Made by a program: the position numbers and the translations under genes. The notes under the pieces were generated by a model. The model did no database searches. It saw nothing but the letters and a program-made list of their open reading frames with translations, and was not told the origin of the DNA. A DNA stretch of 64,000 bases from Dehalococcoidia bacterium. GTDB lineage: Bacteria; Chloroflexota; Dehalococcoidia; Lucifugimonadales; SAR202-VII-2. Shown piece after piece: positions 26,339-39,696 of this stretch. Location of the stretch: assembly GCA_965263165.1 (NCBI GenBank), contig OZ253584.1:1209736-1273735 (forward strand), in the 5' to 3' direction. The stretch's first letter is position 1; the number at the start of each line of letters is the position of its first letter.

Positions 26339-26482
26339 GGCCCGGCCTCGTCCCTGAGTCCGCGAAGCTGAGGAGCCCCGCCCCAAGAACGGCGGGGCTC
26401 CTGCTTTGTTGACGCCTCCTGGGGGCTATGCTACGGTGCTTCCCGTAGAACTCTTCGGACCTTAAAACACTTCTCAGTACCA

Positions 26483-26640
26483 TTCTAGGTGGCCCACACG
26501 GGCAGAATAGGGAAGTGGGTGAAAATCCCACGCGGCCGCGCCACTGTGAGCGGGTAGCCGCCGGCACAAACGCCACTGACCATCAGGTCGGGAAGGCGCC
26601 GGTCAGGCGATGATCCGCAAGCCAGGAGACCTGCCTAGAA
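26483..26640 (+). promoter_or_regulatory. cobalamin (B12) riboswitch aptamer
   Basis: Core AATAGGGAAGTGGGTGAAAATCCCACGCGGCCGCGCCACTGT, B12 box GCCACTGACCATCAGGTCGGGAAGGC, and 3' element AGCCAGGAGACCTGCC. P1 pairs TTCTAGG (26484) with CCTAGAA (26632). Confidence 0.9.
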
Positions 26641-26728
26641 CTTTGCCGGGTGCTGCTCCTCGCGTTGGGGGGCGCCTGGAGATTGGGTTTCGGCAGGTCG
26701 GCTGCCTCCCTCCCTCTCTCGTGGCACG

Positions 26729-36310: not shown

Positions 36311-38322
36311 TTGTGCTACGCTTACGTTGGTTCCTATCGCCGGAGACCCCCTTTGCGAACGCTCGCGCTCCTCGCCTTGATGCTCCTCGCGTTCGCCGCA
36401 TGCCAGTCCGCGCCGCCCACCGGCACTTTCGCGGACCCCGGCGCGCCTCCCACGCCCACCCTTGCGGTCACCCCGCCGCCTACCCCAACCGCCCCGCTCG
36501 CGCCATCCCCGCTGCCTACCCCTGCCGATACCCCAACTCCTACACCGACGGCTACCGCTGTCCCAACACCGACAGCGATGCCAACCGCTACCGCTACCCC
36601 AACGCCTACGCCTACGGCAACCGCCGCGCCCGCGCCAACCCCAACCCCCAGGCCCACGCCCATCCCTACGCCGACGCATAGACAACTCGCCACCGCCGCC
36701 CTCTCCCCCTACCTCTCCTGGTTCAGCTCGCCGTCGGGAGGGGAGTTTTGGCGCATGATGGAAGCGCTCACGAAGATTTGGGTGCTGGACCCCGAGATCG
36801 GCGTTGCTGCTGCGCAGATGCCCTTCTACGACGGCAGCATCACCTATAACGATTATCACGCCCTGGAGGCCCTCGTCACCATCGCCGAGGCCGACCCGGA
36901 CCTGGCGCTGGCTCTCACCGGCTTCCCCTGGTTCGCCGACGGCATACCGGACGAGCGGAGCCCCGTAGCCACAGAGCGCCTGGCGATTGAGTTTCTGGCC
37001 AGGATAGCTCAGGCAAGACCTGGGCTGGCGGCGACGCTCCAAGCCAATGGCTGGTTCGCCGACACTCCGACCGCACGCGAAGCACAGGTGCTCGCTTCCC
37101 TCGCTCGCTTTGCCGAGAAACACCCGAACTTGGCCGCCGAGACGGCGGGGGCCCCTTTGAAGATCGGAGGCGTCGTGGGATATGGATATGGGCGGAATGC
37201 GATTGAATTGCTGCATACATTGGCCGACTGGAATCCGGAGCTCGCGCGCCAGATGCTCGCCTACTTTTCGGAAGAGCCGTTCCGAAACCGCAACTTCTCC
37301 ATGCTGCGCAAGGTGAGCGGTATGAGTTCGGGCAACTCGGACATAACGCGCTTGGAGCGCCTCGTCGCCCAACCCTGGTTCGCCGATGGATTGAATGCGG
37401 AGGAGCGAGCGCTCATCACCGTTCTACGCTTTGGCGGCCAGCAGGCTGACGACCTGATGACCTCCCCATTCTCGCGCTCGGCGGTCATATCGCTGCCCCT
37501 GGCCGGCGAGGTCAATCTCTGGGCGTTCCGGCCCGACCCCTTCCCTCCCGACACCGTGATCGGCGGCAACGTGCTGGAAATGATGGAAGAAGCCGTGCGC
37601 GGCGCCGAGCAGGTGACGGGAGTCCCGTTCCCCACGACCGACGTCATCCTGCTGATCGTTGACCCGGAAAGCCTTGGATTTGCCGGACATTTCAACGGAG
37701 ACCACTTCGTAATCGGGCGGCACATGGAGGGCACCGTGTTCGTAGACCTTGTCTTCCATGAGATAGGCCATTACTACTTCAACTACTTCCACTTCGCGCA
37801 GACCTGGCTCGTCGAGGGGGGGGGGCTGAGCTCGTACACGCGTATGTGAAAGACCGGATAACCCAGAGATACCTTGAGTATCTTGTGCAACTGTCGCCGG
37901 GCGACCCACTTCCAGACGTTCCATTTAGATTCCTAGTTCCCGTTGCAGATCCGAAAGACTACGAGACACTGGAGAACCTGCTGCGCCGCGACGCTGAGAG
38001 CCTTCAGGACCCAAACGGCTGCGGGGCGTTTGAGAACATTCACGCGTTGAGGATCCCCGACCATCCGGCTAGGGGGGAGGCATTTCCCTGCTCCTACGTC
38101 TTCGGCCGGCACCTGCTCCTGAGCCTGCACAACCTGTTTGGGGAAGCGGCGTTCTCGTCGGCCCTGCAGGAGTTGCACCCGCTGTCTCTCGACTCACCCA
38201 GGCCGACCGAGGAAGAGATATACGGCGTATTCCTCAAGCGCACCCCGCCCGGCCTCGAACAGCGGTTCCGCGCCCTGTACAAGCGGGTCCACGGCGGGCC
38301 TTTCCTCAACGCCGGGAGCTGA
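36311..38322 (+). pseudogene. lipoprotein gluzincin (M1-like HExxH...E) metallopeptidase, split by a frameshift in a G10 tract
   Basis: ORFs 36311..37849 and 37846..38322 are collinear. TTG start, signal peptide plus FAAC lipobox, Pro/Thr linker. HEIGH followed by WLVEG, where the frame breaks at 37816-25. Confidence 0.7.
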
Positions 38323-38459
38323 CCCGCTTCTGCTGCGTAGGAGACCTGCGGCAACCCCGCCGCGGTTGACGGTCGGCGCCGAAAGGGGTAAGCGTCAGCG
38401 CAGATCGCCGGGTTCTCCCACTCAACCCTCCCGGCGCGCGCTCTCCATGCGGAACGGCG

Positions 38460-38699
38460 CCTCCCCCAAGCAGGGGCAGGGGGCGCAGCCGCCGCCGGGG
38501 GTACAGCGTGTCCCTCTGTTGCTAAAACGTCCCAGGGCGGAGCGGGCGGGATAACAACGTCCGCGCCAGAAGCCCCCTCCCATCCCTCCCCCAGCAGGCC
38601 CTCCCCCAGCAGGGTGCAGGGGCGCAGCCCCGCCGGGGGTACAGGGGGTGTCCCCCTGTTTCCAAAAACGTTGGAGGGTGGGCAGGTGGGACAACAGCG
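38460..38699 (+). repeat. two ~100-nt direct repeats (38460-38559 and 38600-38699)
   Basis: By-eye alignment gives about 75-80% identity. Both copies start with CCTCCCCC(A)AGCAGG and contain GGGGGTACAG..GTGTCCC.CTGT hairpins. An extra CCTCCCCCAGCAGG sits at 38585. Confidence 0.65.
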
Positions 38700-38782
38700 C
38701 AGGCCAAACCAGACCCTCCGCTGAATGACGACGCAGGCCGCAACAAGACCATCCGTCCAGGAAAAACCCCGCCAACCCCCCA

Positions 38783-38811
38783 TTGCAAAATACGAACGAT
38801 TGTGCTAGAGT
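38783..38811 (+). promoter_or_regulatory. orphan candidate promoter in the non-coding gap
   Basis: TTGCAA, 17 nt, then TGc-TAGAGT (extended -10). No credible ORF lies downstream. Confidence 0.35.
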
Positions 38812-38978
38812 AGCCCCATAAAACCCTGCCGCATACAGGTGGACTGGGGGAATCCATAGCGAGACCCCCTGGGCAGGAGGGTCTGGGAACATTCCCCAGA
38901 CCCGCATCCACCCGAGGAAGGTTGGGACCCGACCGACTGCCGTTGTAGGGCACAGGCGCCTTGGAACCATCCGGCTCA

Positions 38979-39086
38979 GCGACGGCTAACGACGGATCCG
39001 CGACGGCTAAGCGACGGCTGCACGACAGCTAAGCGACGCATCCACGACGGCTAACGACGGGTAACGACGGATAAACGACGGCTCCA
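38979..39086. repeat. array of ten 10-11 bp repeats with a CGACGG core (consensus CGACGGCTAAg)
   Basis: Cores start at 38980, 38990, 39001, 39012, 39023 (CGACAG), 39034 (CGACGC), 39045, 39055, 39065 and 39076. Confidence 0.85.
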
Positions 39087-39113
39087 CGCCTACGGGAGAA
39101 GAAAAAGCAGGCG

Positions 39114-39146
39114 CACAAACAATCAAAGGGTCACAAACAATCAAAG
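39114..39146. repeat. perfect 15-nt direct repeat CACAAACAATCAAAG x2 (period 18)
   Basis: Copies at 39114-39128 and 39132-39146. Confidence 0.8.
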
Positions 39147-39183
39147 AATGAGGTTGAGGCCGGGGAAGCCTCTCATCCCTGCC

Positions 39184-39696
39184 CTAGGTGCTTTCCTCCA
39201 CCTCAACCAACACCTGGCCGCGGCTCACCTGCTCGCCCTCCGCAACGAGGACTCGCCGCACGGCGCCGGCCCTCGCGGCCCTCAGCGTGTGCTCCATCTT
39301 CATCGATTCCAGGACGAGGACAGGCTGGTCCCGTTCCACGATATCCCCAATCTGGACGACGACCTGCAGGACCTTGCCCGGCGCCGGGGCTGCGACGTCG
39401 GCGCTCTCAGGGCCAACCTCGACCTGCCGCCGCCCCCTCCGCCCCGCCGGGCGGAAGATGAAGACGTCGCCGTCGAGCCAGAGGTGGAGCTGCTCACCGA
39501 CCCATGCGTAGGCAAAGGCGAGAATCTCGCCGCCTTTGAGGCGGCAGTAGTCTGAGGTGCCTTCTCCGAGTGCCGCGTCAAGGGCGATGTCGGCCCCTTC
39601 CACATGGACGACGACCCGCCCGCCTGCCTCGGTGACCTCGTAGGTGCACTCCGGGCCTGGGTTGGGATATTGCGGCGCCAGGACCACGCGGCTCAC
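39184..39696 (-). CDS. biotin carboxyl carrier (BT + biotinyl domain) subunit of an acyl-CoA carboxylase
   Basis: VLVLESMKMEH biotinylation motif. GTG 39696 overlaps the upstream stop (GTGA), with AGGAGG 5 nt upstream. Confidence 0.85.
   Translation of the reverse strand: MSRVVLAPQYPNPGPECTYEVTEAGGRVVVHVEGADIALDAALGEGTSDYCRLKGGEILAFAYAWVGEQLHLWLDGDVFIFRPAGRRGRRQVEVGPESADVAAPAPGKVLQVVVQIGDIVERDQPVLVLESMKMEHTLRAARAGAVRRVLVAEGEQVSRGQVLVEVEEST

What the first reader, a model, noticed from the sequence alone, without database searches (positions are those of the whole stretch)
38979..39086. Helically phased array of ten CGACGG-core repeats in a gene-free gap
CGACGG (twice degenerate, CGACAG and CGACGC) recurs ten times, starting at 38980, 38990, 39001, 39012, 39023, 39034, 39045, 39055, 39065 and 39076. 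The spacing alternates between 10 and 11 bp, about one DNA helical turn. The unit consensus is CGACGGCTAAg.

The period is not a multiple of 3, and the array lies in an 861-bp gap between the 3' ends of convergent genes, so it is not coding. Putting the same hexamer on one face of the helix ten times is the architecture of cooperative protein-binding arrays. The 10-11 bp iteron centromeres of type II (ParR/parC) partition systems are an example; the analogy is by layout only, not by sequence. If the array is transcribed from the promoter-like element at 38783, it could instead be a multi-site protein-sponge RNA.

No partner gene (ParR/RHH, Rep and so on) is visible nearby, and I do not recognise the motif.
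Basis: partly seen in the sequence, partly recalled or inferred. Interest (0 to 1): 0.72.

Follow-up and report, generated by a model that had tools for sequence, protein, structure and literature searches.

The report
Phased repeat array from phage-terminase leader element
The ten-unit repeat is real. It is the repeat module of a previously undescribed element found in at least 32 copies in a related Dehalococcoidia genome. In its complete form the element sits directly upstream of phage DNA-packaging (terminase) genes, so the array is most likely a multi-site docking platform for the packaging recognition protein.

Summary
This is far beyond chance.

The array is one module of a roughly 370-bp element:
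- a sigma-70-type promoter (38783-38811)
- a conserved 160-190-nt structured region
- 6-14 units of 10-11 bp
- a conserved tail

One related Dehalococcoidia genome (a MAG) holds at least 32 copies. The window's copy is also conserved at the same position in related genomes. Rfam has no match.

In all five loci with an intact downstream gene, the element lies just upstream of a small zinc-finger protein. In three of these a large terminase gene follows that protein. The same zinc-finger module occurs fused to a large terminase elsewhere.

The window copy is an orphan, a deletion derivative of such a terminase-module insertion.

Best reading (about 0.42): a cosB/pac-like DNA platform with one unit per helical turn, which binds an oligomeric small-terminase-like protein.

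Rivals: the same array acting as RNA in the transcribed leader (about 0.3), or a functionless relic minisatellite (about 0.2). The ParR/parC partition analogy holds for layout only.

Binding is inferred, not shown.

The parts
38783..38811 (+). Sigma-70-type promoter of the element. The -35 hexamer TTGCAA is at 38783-38788, followed by a 17-nt spacer, an extended -10 TG at 38803-38804, and the -10 hexamer TAGAGT at 38806-38811.
   Evidence: The sequence is. Across 37 family copies, TTGC of the -35 and the T, A and final T of the -10 are invariant, while the other hexamer positions and the upstream flank vary. A GAAC in the spacer is also invariant. In copy L017 the scan tool calls the same site at 10 of 12 matches with TG. 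It missed the window copy (8 of 12).
38818..38978 (+). Conserved 5' domain (leader).
- Helix CCTGCC 38825-38830 with GGCAGG 38872-38877.
- Hairpin GGGGG 38846-38850 with CCCCC 38865-38869.
- Variable hairpin GGGTCTGGG 38879-38887 with CCCAGACCC 38895-38903.
- Hairpin TGCC 38938-38941 with GGCA 38949-38952.

The window copy lacks the terminator-like first hairpin and the 5' strand of the outer helix that other copies have.
   Evidence: Alignments are. Pair counts: 92.9% of cells are paired, one C-G to U-A compensatory pair occurs in L038 and L040, and U.G/C-G alternation is 8 to 8 in the outer helix. The variable hairpin exists in three different versions. The deletion in the window copy is visible. 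Length changes that are not multiples of 3 argue against coding.
38980..39085 (+). The array: ten direct units of 10-11 bp. In family register the unit reads G-[CG]-A-Y-G-S-C-T-N(1-2). The window uses the 'CG' class, (G)CGACGGCTAA. The core shared by all array classes is RYGGCT.
   Evidence: Homologous arrays of 6-14 units sit at the same place in every family copy, and almost all spacings are 10 or 11 bp.
39086..39147 (+). Conserved tail ('tail 2'): ACGCCTACGGGAGAAGAAAAAGCAGG..., followed by two copies of an 18-bp repeat AGGnnCACAAACAATCAA (39109-39126 and 39127-39144).
   Evidence: family D9. The same tail is present in L006b, L019, L023, L029, L035 and L037.
39152..39208 (.). GC-rich hairpin region (GGTTGAGG...CCTCAACC, with an inner GAGGC...GCCTC). 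It ends the element and overlaps the stop codon of the convergent biotin-carrier gene. It may act as a terminator in both directions.
   Evidence: Inverted repeat I3 and the fold. The GAGGC(T/C)GAGGCCGGGG-AAGCCTC motif follows tail 2 in several other loci. No U-tract follows it, so terminator function is only inferred.

Best explanation
**What is shown.** The array is the repeat module of a dispersed element derived from a phage terminase module. The element's order is:
- a late-type sigma-70 promoter
- in most copies, an early terminator-like hairpin
- a conserved, structured region of about 150 nt
- 6-14 direct units of 10-11 bp
- a conserved tail

In complete copies a small treble-clef zinc-finger protein gene comes next. 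In three loci it is followed by the large terminase gene.

**What I infer.** The array works on DNA as a cosB/pac-like recognition platform. Each unit presents the same core (RYGGCT, with G[TA/CG]AY in front) about once per helical turn. About ten subunits of an oligomeric small-terminase-like protein could then bind cooperatively, or wrap roughly 110 bp, and so mark the DNA for the large terminase.

**The window copy.** It is an orphan. No terminase genes lie within the 64 kb. It keeps the promoter, most of the leader, ten units and the tail. It is a deletion derivative of a terminase-module insertion that is still partly visible at the same locus in relatives.
For: 1. **Family and conservation.** One Dehalococcoidia MAG has at least 32 copies. 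The window's copy is conserved at the syntenic locus in L001, L003, L004 and L006.
2. **Position.** All 5 loci with an intact small gene (L008, L012, L038, L039, L040) have the element, with the array ending about 100 bp upstream of the start codon. The large terminase (Pfam Terminase_6N/6C; 58% identical to the TerL of Microcystis phage Mae-JY09) follows in L012, L008 and L038, overlapping the small gene's end by about 30 nt in L038. A portal gene follows in L012.
3. **Domain fusion.** The N-terminal zinc-finger module of the small protein is found fused to a large terminase in P0119 (hhalign probability 96%; Pfam Terminase_6N/6C). The module is treble-clef-like (DUF2116 and YacG-type hits).
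4. **Geometry.** About 240 intervals are 10 or 11 bp, with means of 10.5 (GTAAC class), 11.0 (GCGAY class) and 10.67 (window). Unit counts are 6-14 with a median of 10. Published small terminases are rings of 8-12 subunits (PMC9611059) whose DNA-binding motifs lie about one B-DNA turn apart, suited to about 100 bp of wrapped DNA, and the SPP1 pac site spans the terS promoters (PMC4737164).
5. **History of the locus.** The syntenic loci L004 and L006 retain a remnant of the small gene between two copies of the leader.
6. **Stability.** The array is identical in a near-identical strain, whereas a 15-bp minisatellite 370 bp away changed from 2 to 10 copies.
Against: - No binding data exist.
- The small protein has no Pfam, PHROG, NCBIfam or PDB match to any known small terminase, and its AlphaFold model is poor (pLDDT 54). 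Its role rests on gene position and one domain fusion.
- A simple match between protein class and array class failed. P0036 and P0024 share an N-terminal class but sit behind GTAAC and CGCGATGG arrays respectively.
- The order of 10-bp and 11-bp spacings is no better phased than random (permutation p = 0.26).
- A pac or cos site is normally single-copy. More than 30 orphans with selectively conserved promoters are not explained by a pure DNA role.
- The leader shows RNA-like pairing patterns.
- All terminase islands seen are remnants: a frameshifted TerL, or no capsid genes.
Confidence: 0.42

Rival explanations
1. RNA-level function. The promoter transcribes the leader and the array. The array then acts as single-stranded RNA, as a multi-site platform for an oligomeric RNA-binding protein. 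That protein could be the Arg-rich small protein itself, for autoregulation or antitermination of the terminase operon. The orphan copies would be sRNA genes that titrate that factor.
For: - The promoter's functionally critical positions are invariant in 37 copies, orphans included.
- The leader shows a 9-bp helix with one compensatory C-G to U-A change, frequent U.G/C-G alternation, and a hairpin replaced by three different hairpins at the same site.
- In the window copy the early terminator hairpin is deleted, so transcription would run into the array.
- The N-terminus of the small protein is Arg-rich.
Against: - Covariation is weak: 4 pairs with changes on both sides, and the copies are closely related.
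- The fold z-scores are unremarkable: -1.96 for the + strand and -1.35 for the - strand.
- In most copies a terminator-like hairpin plus U-run sits about 10-45 nt after the start, so little array RNA would be made without antitermination.
- The units are not presented in hairpin loops and lack the motifs of known sponge RNAs. There is no Rfam match.
- One copy carries the whole array inverted relative to the leader (L033).
- A unit length of 10-11 nt has no special meaning for RNA.
Confidence: 0.3
2. Functionless relic. The array is a minisatellite carried along inside decaying copies of a phage-derived or otherwise selfish module. It is kept uniform by slippage and by gene conversion between copies. 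The window copy does nothing today.
For: - Every terminase island seen is decayed. Many copies carry frameshifted remnants of the small gene.
- Unit number varies from 6 to 14 between paralogous copies, with expansions of identical middle units.
- Arrays at the orthologous locus differ in class between genomes, and one resembles the array at another locus. This suggests conversion between copies.
- The window copy has lost part of the leader.
Against: - Promoter, leader and array are retained together in more than 30 copies while the adjacent coding parts were lost.
- The orphan at this locus survived the divergence of genomes whose flanking proteins are only 68-90% identical, and it kept 10-11 regular units.
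- The array did not change between close strains while a neighbouring minisatellite did.
- The promoter shows position-specific conservation.
Confidence: 0.2
3. Partition centromere or replication iterons. The array would be a parC-like centromere bound by a ParR-type adaptor, or an origin-type iteron set bound by a Rep protein.
For: Layout only. Ten direct repeats of about 11 bp match the layout of the R1 parC centromere (my own knowledge, not tested here). Some viral contigs carry 11-bp arrays with similar cores next to primase or helicase genes.
Against: - No ParM/ParA, ParR/RHH or Rep gene lies next to any of about 40 copies examined. The neighbours are metabolic genes or terminase genes.
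- The array lies 170 bp downstream of the promoter rather than flanking it.
- The element is chromosomal and present in more than 30 copies per genome.
Confidence: 0.03

Closest known systems
Small-terminase recognition sites of tailed phages (lambda cosB; SPP1/SF6 pacL)
   Same: - It lies immediately upstream of the gene in the small-terminase position.
- It spans about 100-150 bp and is built of repeated elements.
- It is close to the operon's promoter, as in SPP1, where pac spans the terS promoters.
- The geometry fits a ring of 8-12 subunits whose DNA-binding motifs sit one helical turn apart (PMC4737164, PMC9611059).
   Different: - Known sites have two or three boxes or R sites, not 6-14 near-identical direct units at 10-11 bp.
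- The candidate protein has a treble-clef zinc finger rather than a helix-turn-helix, and matches no small-terminase family.
- The site is dispersed in more than 30 copies, most of them without terminase genes.
- Binding and cleavage are untested.
Type II partition centromere parC bound by ParR (plasmid R1)
   Same: About ten direct repeats of about 11 bp, a layout suited to cooperative binding with DNA wrapped on a protein scaffold.
   Different: - No ParM/ParR genes are present.
- The array does not flank the promoter.
- The element is chromosomal and multi-copy.
- The genes linked to it are terminase genes.
Lambdoid late-gene control region (constitutive pR' followed by terminator tR', read through by Q)
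   Same: A strong sigma-70 promoter is followed within about 45 nt by a terminator-like hairpin and U-run, upstream of packaging genes. The lambda comparison is from my own knowledge.
   Different: No Q-like gene or Q-binding element was identified. The window copy has lost the hairpin.
Protein-sponge sRNAs (CsrB/RsmZ, CrcZ)
   Same: It has its own promoter and many copies of a short motif in one transcript.
   Different: - It has no GGA or A-rich motifs.
- The motifs are strictly periodic and are not displayed in hairpin loops.
- There is no Rfam match.
- It is physically linked to terminase genes.
Dispersed bacterial repeat families (REP/MITE-like elements, Correia-type elements that carry promoters)
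   Same: It is present in dozens of intergenic copies per genome, carries a promoter, and is often adjacent to other repeat families.
   Different: No terminal inverted repeats or target-site duplications were recognised. It has a long internal tandem array. The full-length versions are the leaders of a phage operon.

Membership tests
Phage pac/cosB small-terminase recognition site | It lies next to or upstream of the small terminase gene of a packaging operon. | tested here: met
   Met for the family: 5 of 5 loci with an intact small gene, with TerL following in 3 and a portal gene in 1. Not met for the window copy itself, which is an orphan.
Phage pac/cosB small-terminase recognition site | The adjacent small protein is a small terminase: a DNA-binding domain, an oligomerisation core and interaction with TerL. 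| tested here: inconclusive
   No Pfam, PHROG, NCBIfam or PDB match. The model is poor and all-helical. In favour: the gene's position, its overlap with the terL start in L038, and its zinc-finger module being fused to a TerL in P0119.
Phage pac/cosB small-terminase recognition site | Specific binding by the small terminase, and terminase cleavage nearby. | not testable with these tools
   This needs EMSA or footprinting and mapping of DNA ends.
Phage pac/cosB small-terminase recognition site | One site per phage genome. | tested here: not met
   At least 32 dispersed copies in one 3.07-Mb MAG, most without terminase genes.
Type II ParR/parC centromere | An adjacent parM-parR (actin-like ATPase plus RHH adaptor) operon, with the iterons flanking its promoter. 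| tested here: not met
   The neighbours are hypothetical, biotin-carboxylase or terminase genes. The array is a single block about 170 bp downstream of the promoter.
Type II ParR/parC centromere | Located on a plasmid or other low-copy episome. | tested here: not met
   The copies lie on Mb-scale chromosomal contigs.
Protein-sponge sRNA (Csr/Rsm type) | An independent transcription unit with its own promoter and a terminator. | tested here: inconclusive
   The promoter is supported by its conservation pattern. The 3' end is undefined: GC hairpins without U-tracts. Most copies have an early terminator-like hairpin.
Protein-sponge sRNA (Csr/Rsm type) | Repeated GGA-type motifs displayed in hairpin loops or single-stranded linkers. 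| tested here: not met
   The unit core is RYGGCT. GGA appears in only 2 of the 10 window units. There is no hairpin display.
Any Rfam family | A covariance-model match at or near the gathering score. | tested here: not met
   The only hit in the whole window is a cobalamin riboswitch at another position. In the region, the best match is 20 bits against a 50-bit cut-off. There are no hits in L001 or L038 copies.
Neutral minisatellite (VNTR) | Copy number varies between close strains and there is no conserved neighbour. | tested here: not met
   The array is identical in the near-identical strain L003, while a 15-bp repeat nearby went from 2 to 10 copies. The promoter, leader and tail are conserved. 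Paralogous copies do differ in unit number, from 6 to 14.
Coding sequence or decayed gene | An open frame, a period of 3, or homology to proteins. | tested here: not met
   The period is 10-11. ORFs over the array have no hits. Indels in the leader are not multiples of 3.

The most novel reading that the evidence does not exclude
The orphan copies, about one per 100 kb, are working packaging-initiation sites. A resident (domesticated) or infecting terminase would recognise the phased array through its zinc-finger subunit and start headful packaging of chromosomal DNA at each copy. That would give these Dehalococcoidia a built-in, genome-wide transduction system resembling a gene transfer agent. 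Alternatively, the host may keep the copies as decoys that divert the terminase of invading phages. In either case the array would be the first clear example of a sequence-specific 'one repeat per subunit' wrap around a small-terminase ring.
Probability: 0.13. Interest if true: 0.85.

Novelty: new variant of a known kind. Interest (0 to 1): 0.6.

Why it matters
How ring-shaped small terminases recognise a specific DNA sequence is unresolved. The 2022 review states that neither the wrapping model nor the threading model explains sequence specificity (PMC9611059).

An array that offers one identical site per helical turn, in about the number of subunits in such a ring, and directly upstream of the candidate gene, would make a 'sequence-specific nucleosome' model directly testable.

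The dispersal matters as a separate point. There are more than 30 promoter-bearing copies per genome, and the one at this locus is conserved across related genomes. That raises the possibility that packaging signals have been spread around a chromosome, which bears on how gene transfer agents and lateral transduction evolve.

If the element instead acts as RNA, it is a new multi-copy structured RNA family in uncultured Chloroflexota.

Tried and rejected
- **Rfam.** Whole window at gathering score, and permissive scans of the region and of two other copies: nothing relevant.
- **Exact look-ups of window proteins.** Not on record, so the window's own genome could not be read beyond the 64 kb.
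- **JGI metagenome scans.** Two leader patterns gave 0 hits. The viral-contig scan for the leader also gave 0 hits, as did the scan for relatives of the small protein.
- **Viral-contig scans for the unit arrays.** 17 contigs carry 10-11-bp arrays with similar cores, in mixed contexts: primase/helicase genes, regulators, and one upstream of small genes plus a TerL (L057). The L057 small protein is unrelated to the family. I judged these to be selection artefacts of the pattern and uninformative.
- **Close TerL relatives among phages.** There is no comparable array upstream of the TerL-adjacent gene in Mae-JY09. The Desulfofustis phage has 21-bp arrays near its left end, which I did not pursue.
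- **Protein class against array class.** Not supported.
- **Phase-keeping test on the order of 10-bp and 11-bp spacings.** Not significant, p = 0.26.
- **Pairing of units with the tail (CGTTAC) or with the GCCGTT of the leader.** This does not co-vary between array classes. I rejected it as a general feature by inspecting.
- **Structure prediction of the small protein.** Too poor for a fold search.
- **Coding potential of the leader.** An ATG-started frame of about 65 aa exists in some copies, but I rejected it because the copies differ by indels that are not multiples of 3 and the window copy lacks the ATG.
- **CRISPR, type III toxin-antitoxin RNA repeats and Rho-loading (rut) sites.** Considered and set aside on unit length (10-11 nt) and composition (G about equal to C).
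- **The two hypothetical genes upstream.** They are syntenic neighbours only, not part of the element.

Full report
**1. The observation**

The spacings are 10, 11, 11, 11, 11, 11, 10, 10, 11. Tandem Repeats Finder reports the array with period 11, and with a better score at period 22. No other 108-bp stretch of the window holds more than 3 such cores, simulated sequences reach at most 4, and the Poisson probability is about 1e-13.

The gap is 861 bp (38323-39183). It lies between a + strand hypothetical gene and a - strand biotin-carrier-like gene that heads a biotin carboxylase / carboxyltransferase cluster. Nothing coding covers the array. Rfam gives no credible match.

**2. The array is one module of a larger conserved element**

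Homologues of the upstream 158-aa protein led to related contigs.

- A near-identical strain (L003) has the same ten units base for base. A 15-bp minisatellite 370 bp upstream differs between the two, with 2 copies in the window and 10 in L003.
- More distant relatives (L001, L004, L006; flanking proteins 68-90% identical) carry, at the same locus, the same promoter-like sequence, a conserved region of about 160-190 nt, an array of 10-11 units and a conserved tail. Their units differ, however: GTAACGRCTCn or CGCGACGnnTn instead of CGACGGCTAAn.
- A pattern taken from the conserved region found 30 further loci in the species-representative genome collection, holding 32 matches. All are from one Dehalococcoidia MAG (CBDDDS01, contigs totalling 3.07 Mb). 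One additional hit was a chance match in coding DNA.
- Only one copy lies in the 64-kb window.

So the element is a dispersed family, with roughly one copy per 100 kb in that MAG.

**3. Anatomy of the family**

*Promoter.* The consensus is TTGCAA, 17 nt, TGcTATAGT. Over 37 copies, TTGC of the -35 and the T, A and final T of the -10 never vary. The other hexamer positions, part of the spacer and the upstream flank do vary. This is the pattern expected of a promoter under selection, and it holds in the orphan copies as well.

*Early hairpin.* In most copies a 10-bp GC-rich hairpin followed by UCUUUCU sits just after the start. The scan tool calls it terminator-like. The window and L003 have lost this hairpin and the 5' strand of the outer helix through a deletion of about 35 nt.

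*Conserved 5' domain.* It folds consistently into an outer helix, a 9-bp helix, a G5/C5 hairpin, a variable hairpin and a 3' hairpin. On a 16-sequence alignment:
- 92.9% of cells pair.
- One pair shows a C-G to U-A double change, in L038 and L040.
- One outer-helix pair alternates U.G and C-G, 8 to 8.
- The variable hairpin exists in three unrelated versions, all of which still form hairpins.

This is suggestive of an RNA structure but not proof. The copies are closely related, and only four pairs change on both sides. Length differences that are not multiples of 3 exclude a coding role.

*Array.* It has 6-14 units with a median of 10. Almost all spacings are 10 or 11 bp. The means are 10.5 for the GTAAC class, 11.0 for the GCGAY class and 10.67 for the window.

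Aligned on the shared last unit, the classes differ mainly by TA versus CG at positions 2-3 of G-[TA|CG]-A-Y-G-S-C-T. The universal core is RYGGCT. A third, more degenerate version ('type B') keeps only the GGCTC part at the same spacing.

The 3'-terminal units are the same across many copies while the middle units expand and contract, which is how tandem arrays usually evolve. The order of 10s and 11s is not better phased than random (p = 0.26). The helical argument therefore rests on the unit length alone.

**4. The link to phage packaging genes**

In the MAG, two copies are followed by a small open reading frame and then a large terminase.

- **L012:** small gene, then TerL (Terminase_6N/6C, frameshifted, with a ThaI restriction-modification insertion), then a portal gene.
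- **L008:** small gene, then the N-terminus of TerL.

The small protein family is confined to this clade. Three further loci from other assemblies show the same arrangement:

- **L038:** fourteen exact 11-bp CGCGATGG units, then the small gene, then a 406-aa TerL overlapping it by about 30 nt.
- **L039:** nine GTAAC units, then the small gene, then a TerL fragment.
- **L040:** eleven GTAAC units and the small gene.

Thus 5 of 5 intact small genes have the element, with the array ending about 100 bp upstream of the start codon. The TerL is a genuine phage large terminase, 58% identical to that of Microcystis phage Mae-JY09.

Many other copies retain frameshifted remnants of the small gene. These include L004 and L006, at the window's own syntenic locus. 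There a promoter-bearing type-B copy and a gene remnant precede a second leader and array. The window's junction reads CCCCAT|AAAAC|CCTGCCGC. This looks like a deletion that fused the first promoter to the second leader.

**5. What the small protein is**

It matches no small-terminase family in Pfam, PHROGs, NCBIfam or the PDB. Its predicted structure is low-confidence and helical.

A profile search of 1.8 billion representative proteins finds full-length relatives only in this clade. Its N-terminal module of about 40 residues (CxxC...YCSxxCRxAAxR) is widespread. Pfam labels that module in remote hits as a probable treble-clef zinc finger (DUF2116, with YacG-like and MYND-like hits). In P0076 the same module is found alongside Pfam's 'putative DNA-binding phage zinc finger' domain, which lies in a different part of that protein. 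In P0119 the module is fused to a large terminase.

Gene position, overlap with terL and this fusion together make a terminase DNA-recognition subunit the best reading. It remains an inference.

Truncated family members P0014 and P0049 are reported on a contig of 3,093,406 bp. That is the same length as the contig carrying the 100%-identical P0001, so it is presumably the window's genome.

**6. Mechanism**

The element occupies the place where tailed phages keep their packaging recognition site.

In SPP1 the pac region spans the terS promoters and the start of terS. Adjacent DNA-binding motifs on small-terminase rings are about one B-DNA turn apart, and about 100 bp would wrap around the ring (PMC4737164). 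Rings have 8-12 subunits (PMC9611059). An array of about ten units, one per turn and about 110 bp long, fits this geometry.

I therefore propose that the array is a cosB/pac-like platform bound cooperatively by the oligomeric zinc-finger protein. The promoter plus early hairpin would form a late-operon control region.

*Shown:* the element's architecture, its dispersal, its synteny, its link to terminase genes, and the promoter's conservation pattern.

*Inferred:* protein binding, oligomeric state, and DNA rather than RNA as the target.

**7. Against this reading, and the rivals**

- A simple correspondence between protein class and array class failed.
- A single-copy site is the rule for phages, and more than 30 orphans with conserved promoters need another explanation.
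- The leader looks RNA-like.

The RNA rival has the array acting as a multi-site RNA platform in the leader or in orphan sRNAs. It explains the conserved promoters. It does not explain the unit length, and in most copies it is weakened by the early terminator-like hairpin.

The relic rival fits the universal decay of the terminase islands. It does not fit the long retention of regular arrays and promoters.

The partition or iteron reading has no gene support at all.

**8. Comparison with known systems, and novelty**

In layout the array resembles R1 parC and, by function as proposed here, cosB/pacL. It fails the membership tests for parC, for Csr-type sponge RNAs and for any Rfam family. For pac/cosB it meets the position criterion, fails the single-copy criterion, and leaves the protein identity and binding untested.

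I found no description of such an element in the searchable literature. I file it as a new variant of a known kind: a phased iteron array for an oligomeric nucleic-acid-binding protein, here tied to a terminase. My confidence in the specific mechanism is moderate.

Noticed in passing
window 38584-38613; L003 6855-7004: A 15-bp minisatellite (CCCTCCCCCAGCAGG in the window, CCCTCCCCCACCAGG in L003). It has 2 copies in the window and 10 perfect copies in the near-identical strain L003. It is hypervariable, unlike the 11-bp array 370 bp away.
   Followed up: partly
window 38459-38560 and 38598-38700: Two tandem copies of a REP-like dispersed repeat of about 100 bp, containing GGGGTACAG(C/G)G(T/G)GTCCCC(C)TGT...AAAAACGT..GGAGGGTGG. 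Copies of the same family lie 170-530 bp upstream of the element's promoter in L015, L031, L035, L039 and L040, and elsewhere in L008, L014, L017 and L018. It is a separate repeat family that often accompanies the element.
   Followed up: partly
window 26470-26652 (+): A cobalamin riboswitch aptamer (RF00174, 128.5 bits). It is unrelated to the finding.
   Followed up: no
window 36311-38322; L003, L004, L006: A gene pair encodes a 512-aa protein with a Pro/Thr-rich repetitive N-terminus and a 158-aa protein, with the two genes overlapping. The pair is present once in the window but as two tandem pairs in L003, L004 and L006. It has no family assignment and is confined to the syntenic locus.
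   Followed up: partly
L033 6943-7135 region (- strand copy at reverse-complement position 908): One family copy carries the whole repeat array inverted, with GTTAC/ATTAC units reading as the reverse complement of GTAAC/GTAAT units. The loop of its G5/C5 hairpin is also inverted. The sequence between the two inversions is in normal orientation.
   Followed up: partly
L004 5070-6050; L006 8828-9830; L023 7272-7610: Composite copies. In L004 and L006, a promoter-bearing copy with a type-B array and a remnant of the small gene is joined to a second leader and array that lack a promoter. In L023 the leader is duplicated in tandem. All junctions fall at the GGAGCC...GGCTCC hairpin, which suggests a recombination hot spot.
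   Followed up: partly
L012 3623-5133: A ThaI-type restriction endonuclease gene and an N4/N6 DNA methyltransferase gene are inserted between the large terminase and portal genes of the remnant packaging module.
   Followed up: no
L042 1-78 and 831-1069 (Desulfofustis phage LS06-2018-MD02): Several arrays of 21-bp tandem repeats (two helical turns) lie near the left genome end. They are 1.1-2.2 kb upstream of the annotated small terminase of a phage whose TerL is 51.5% identical to the family's TerL.
   Followed up: no
L057 4337-4466 (IMG/VR contig end): At least twelve 11-bp GCGATGGCTGA units lie at the end of a viral contig. They are 11 bp from a 98-aa gene that is followed by a 275-aa gene and a 900-aa protein with a large-terminase domain. 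The array's orientation relative to the genes is opposite to that in the family, and the 98-aa protein is unrelated to the small protein family.
   Followed up: partly
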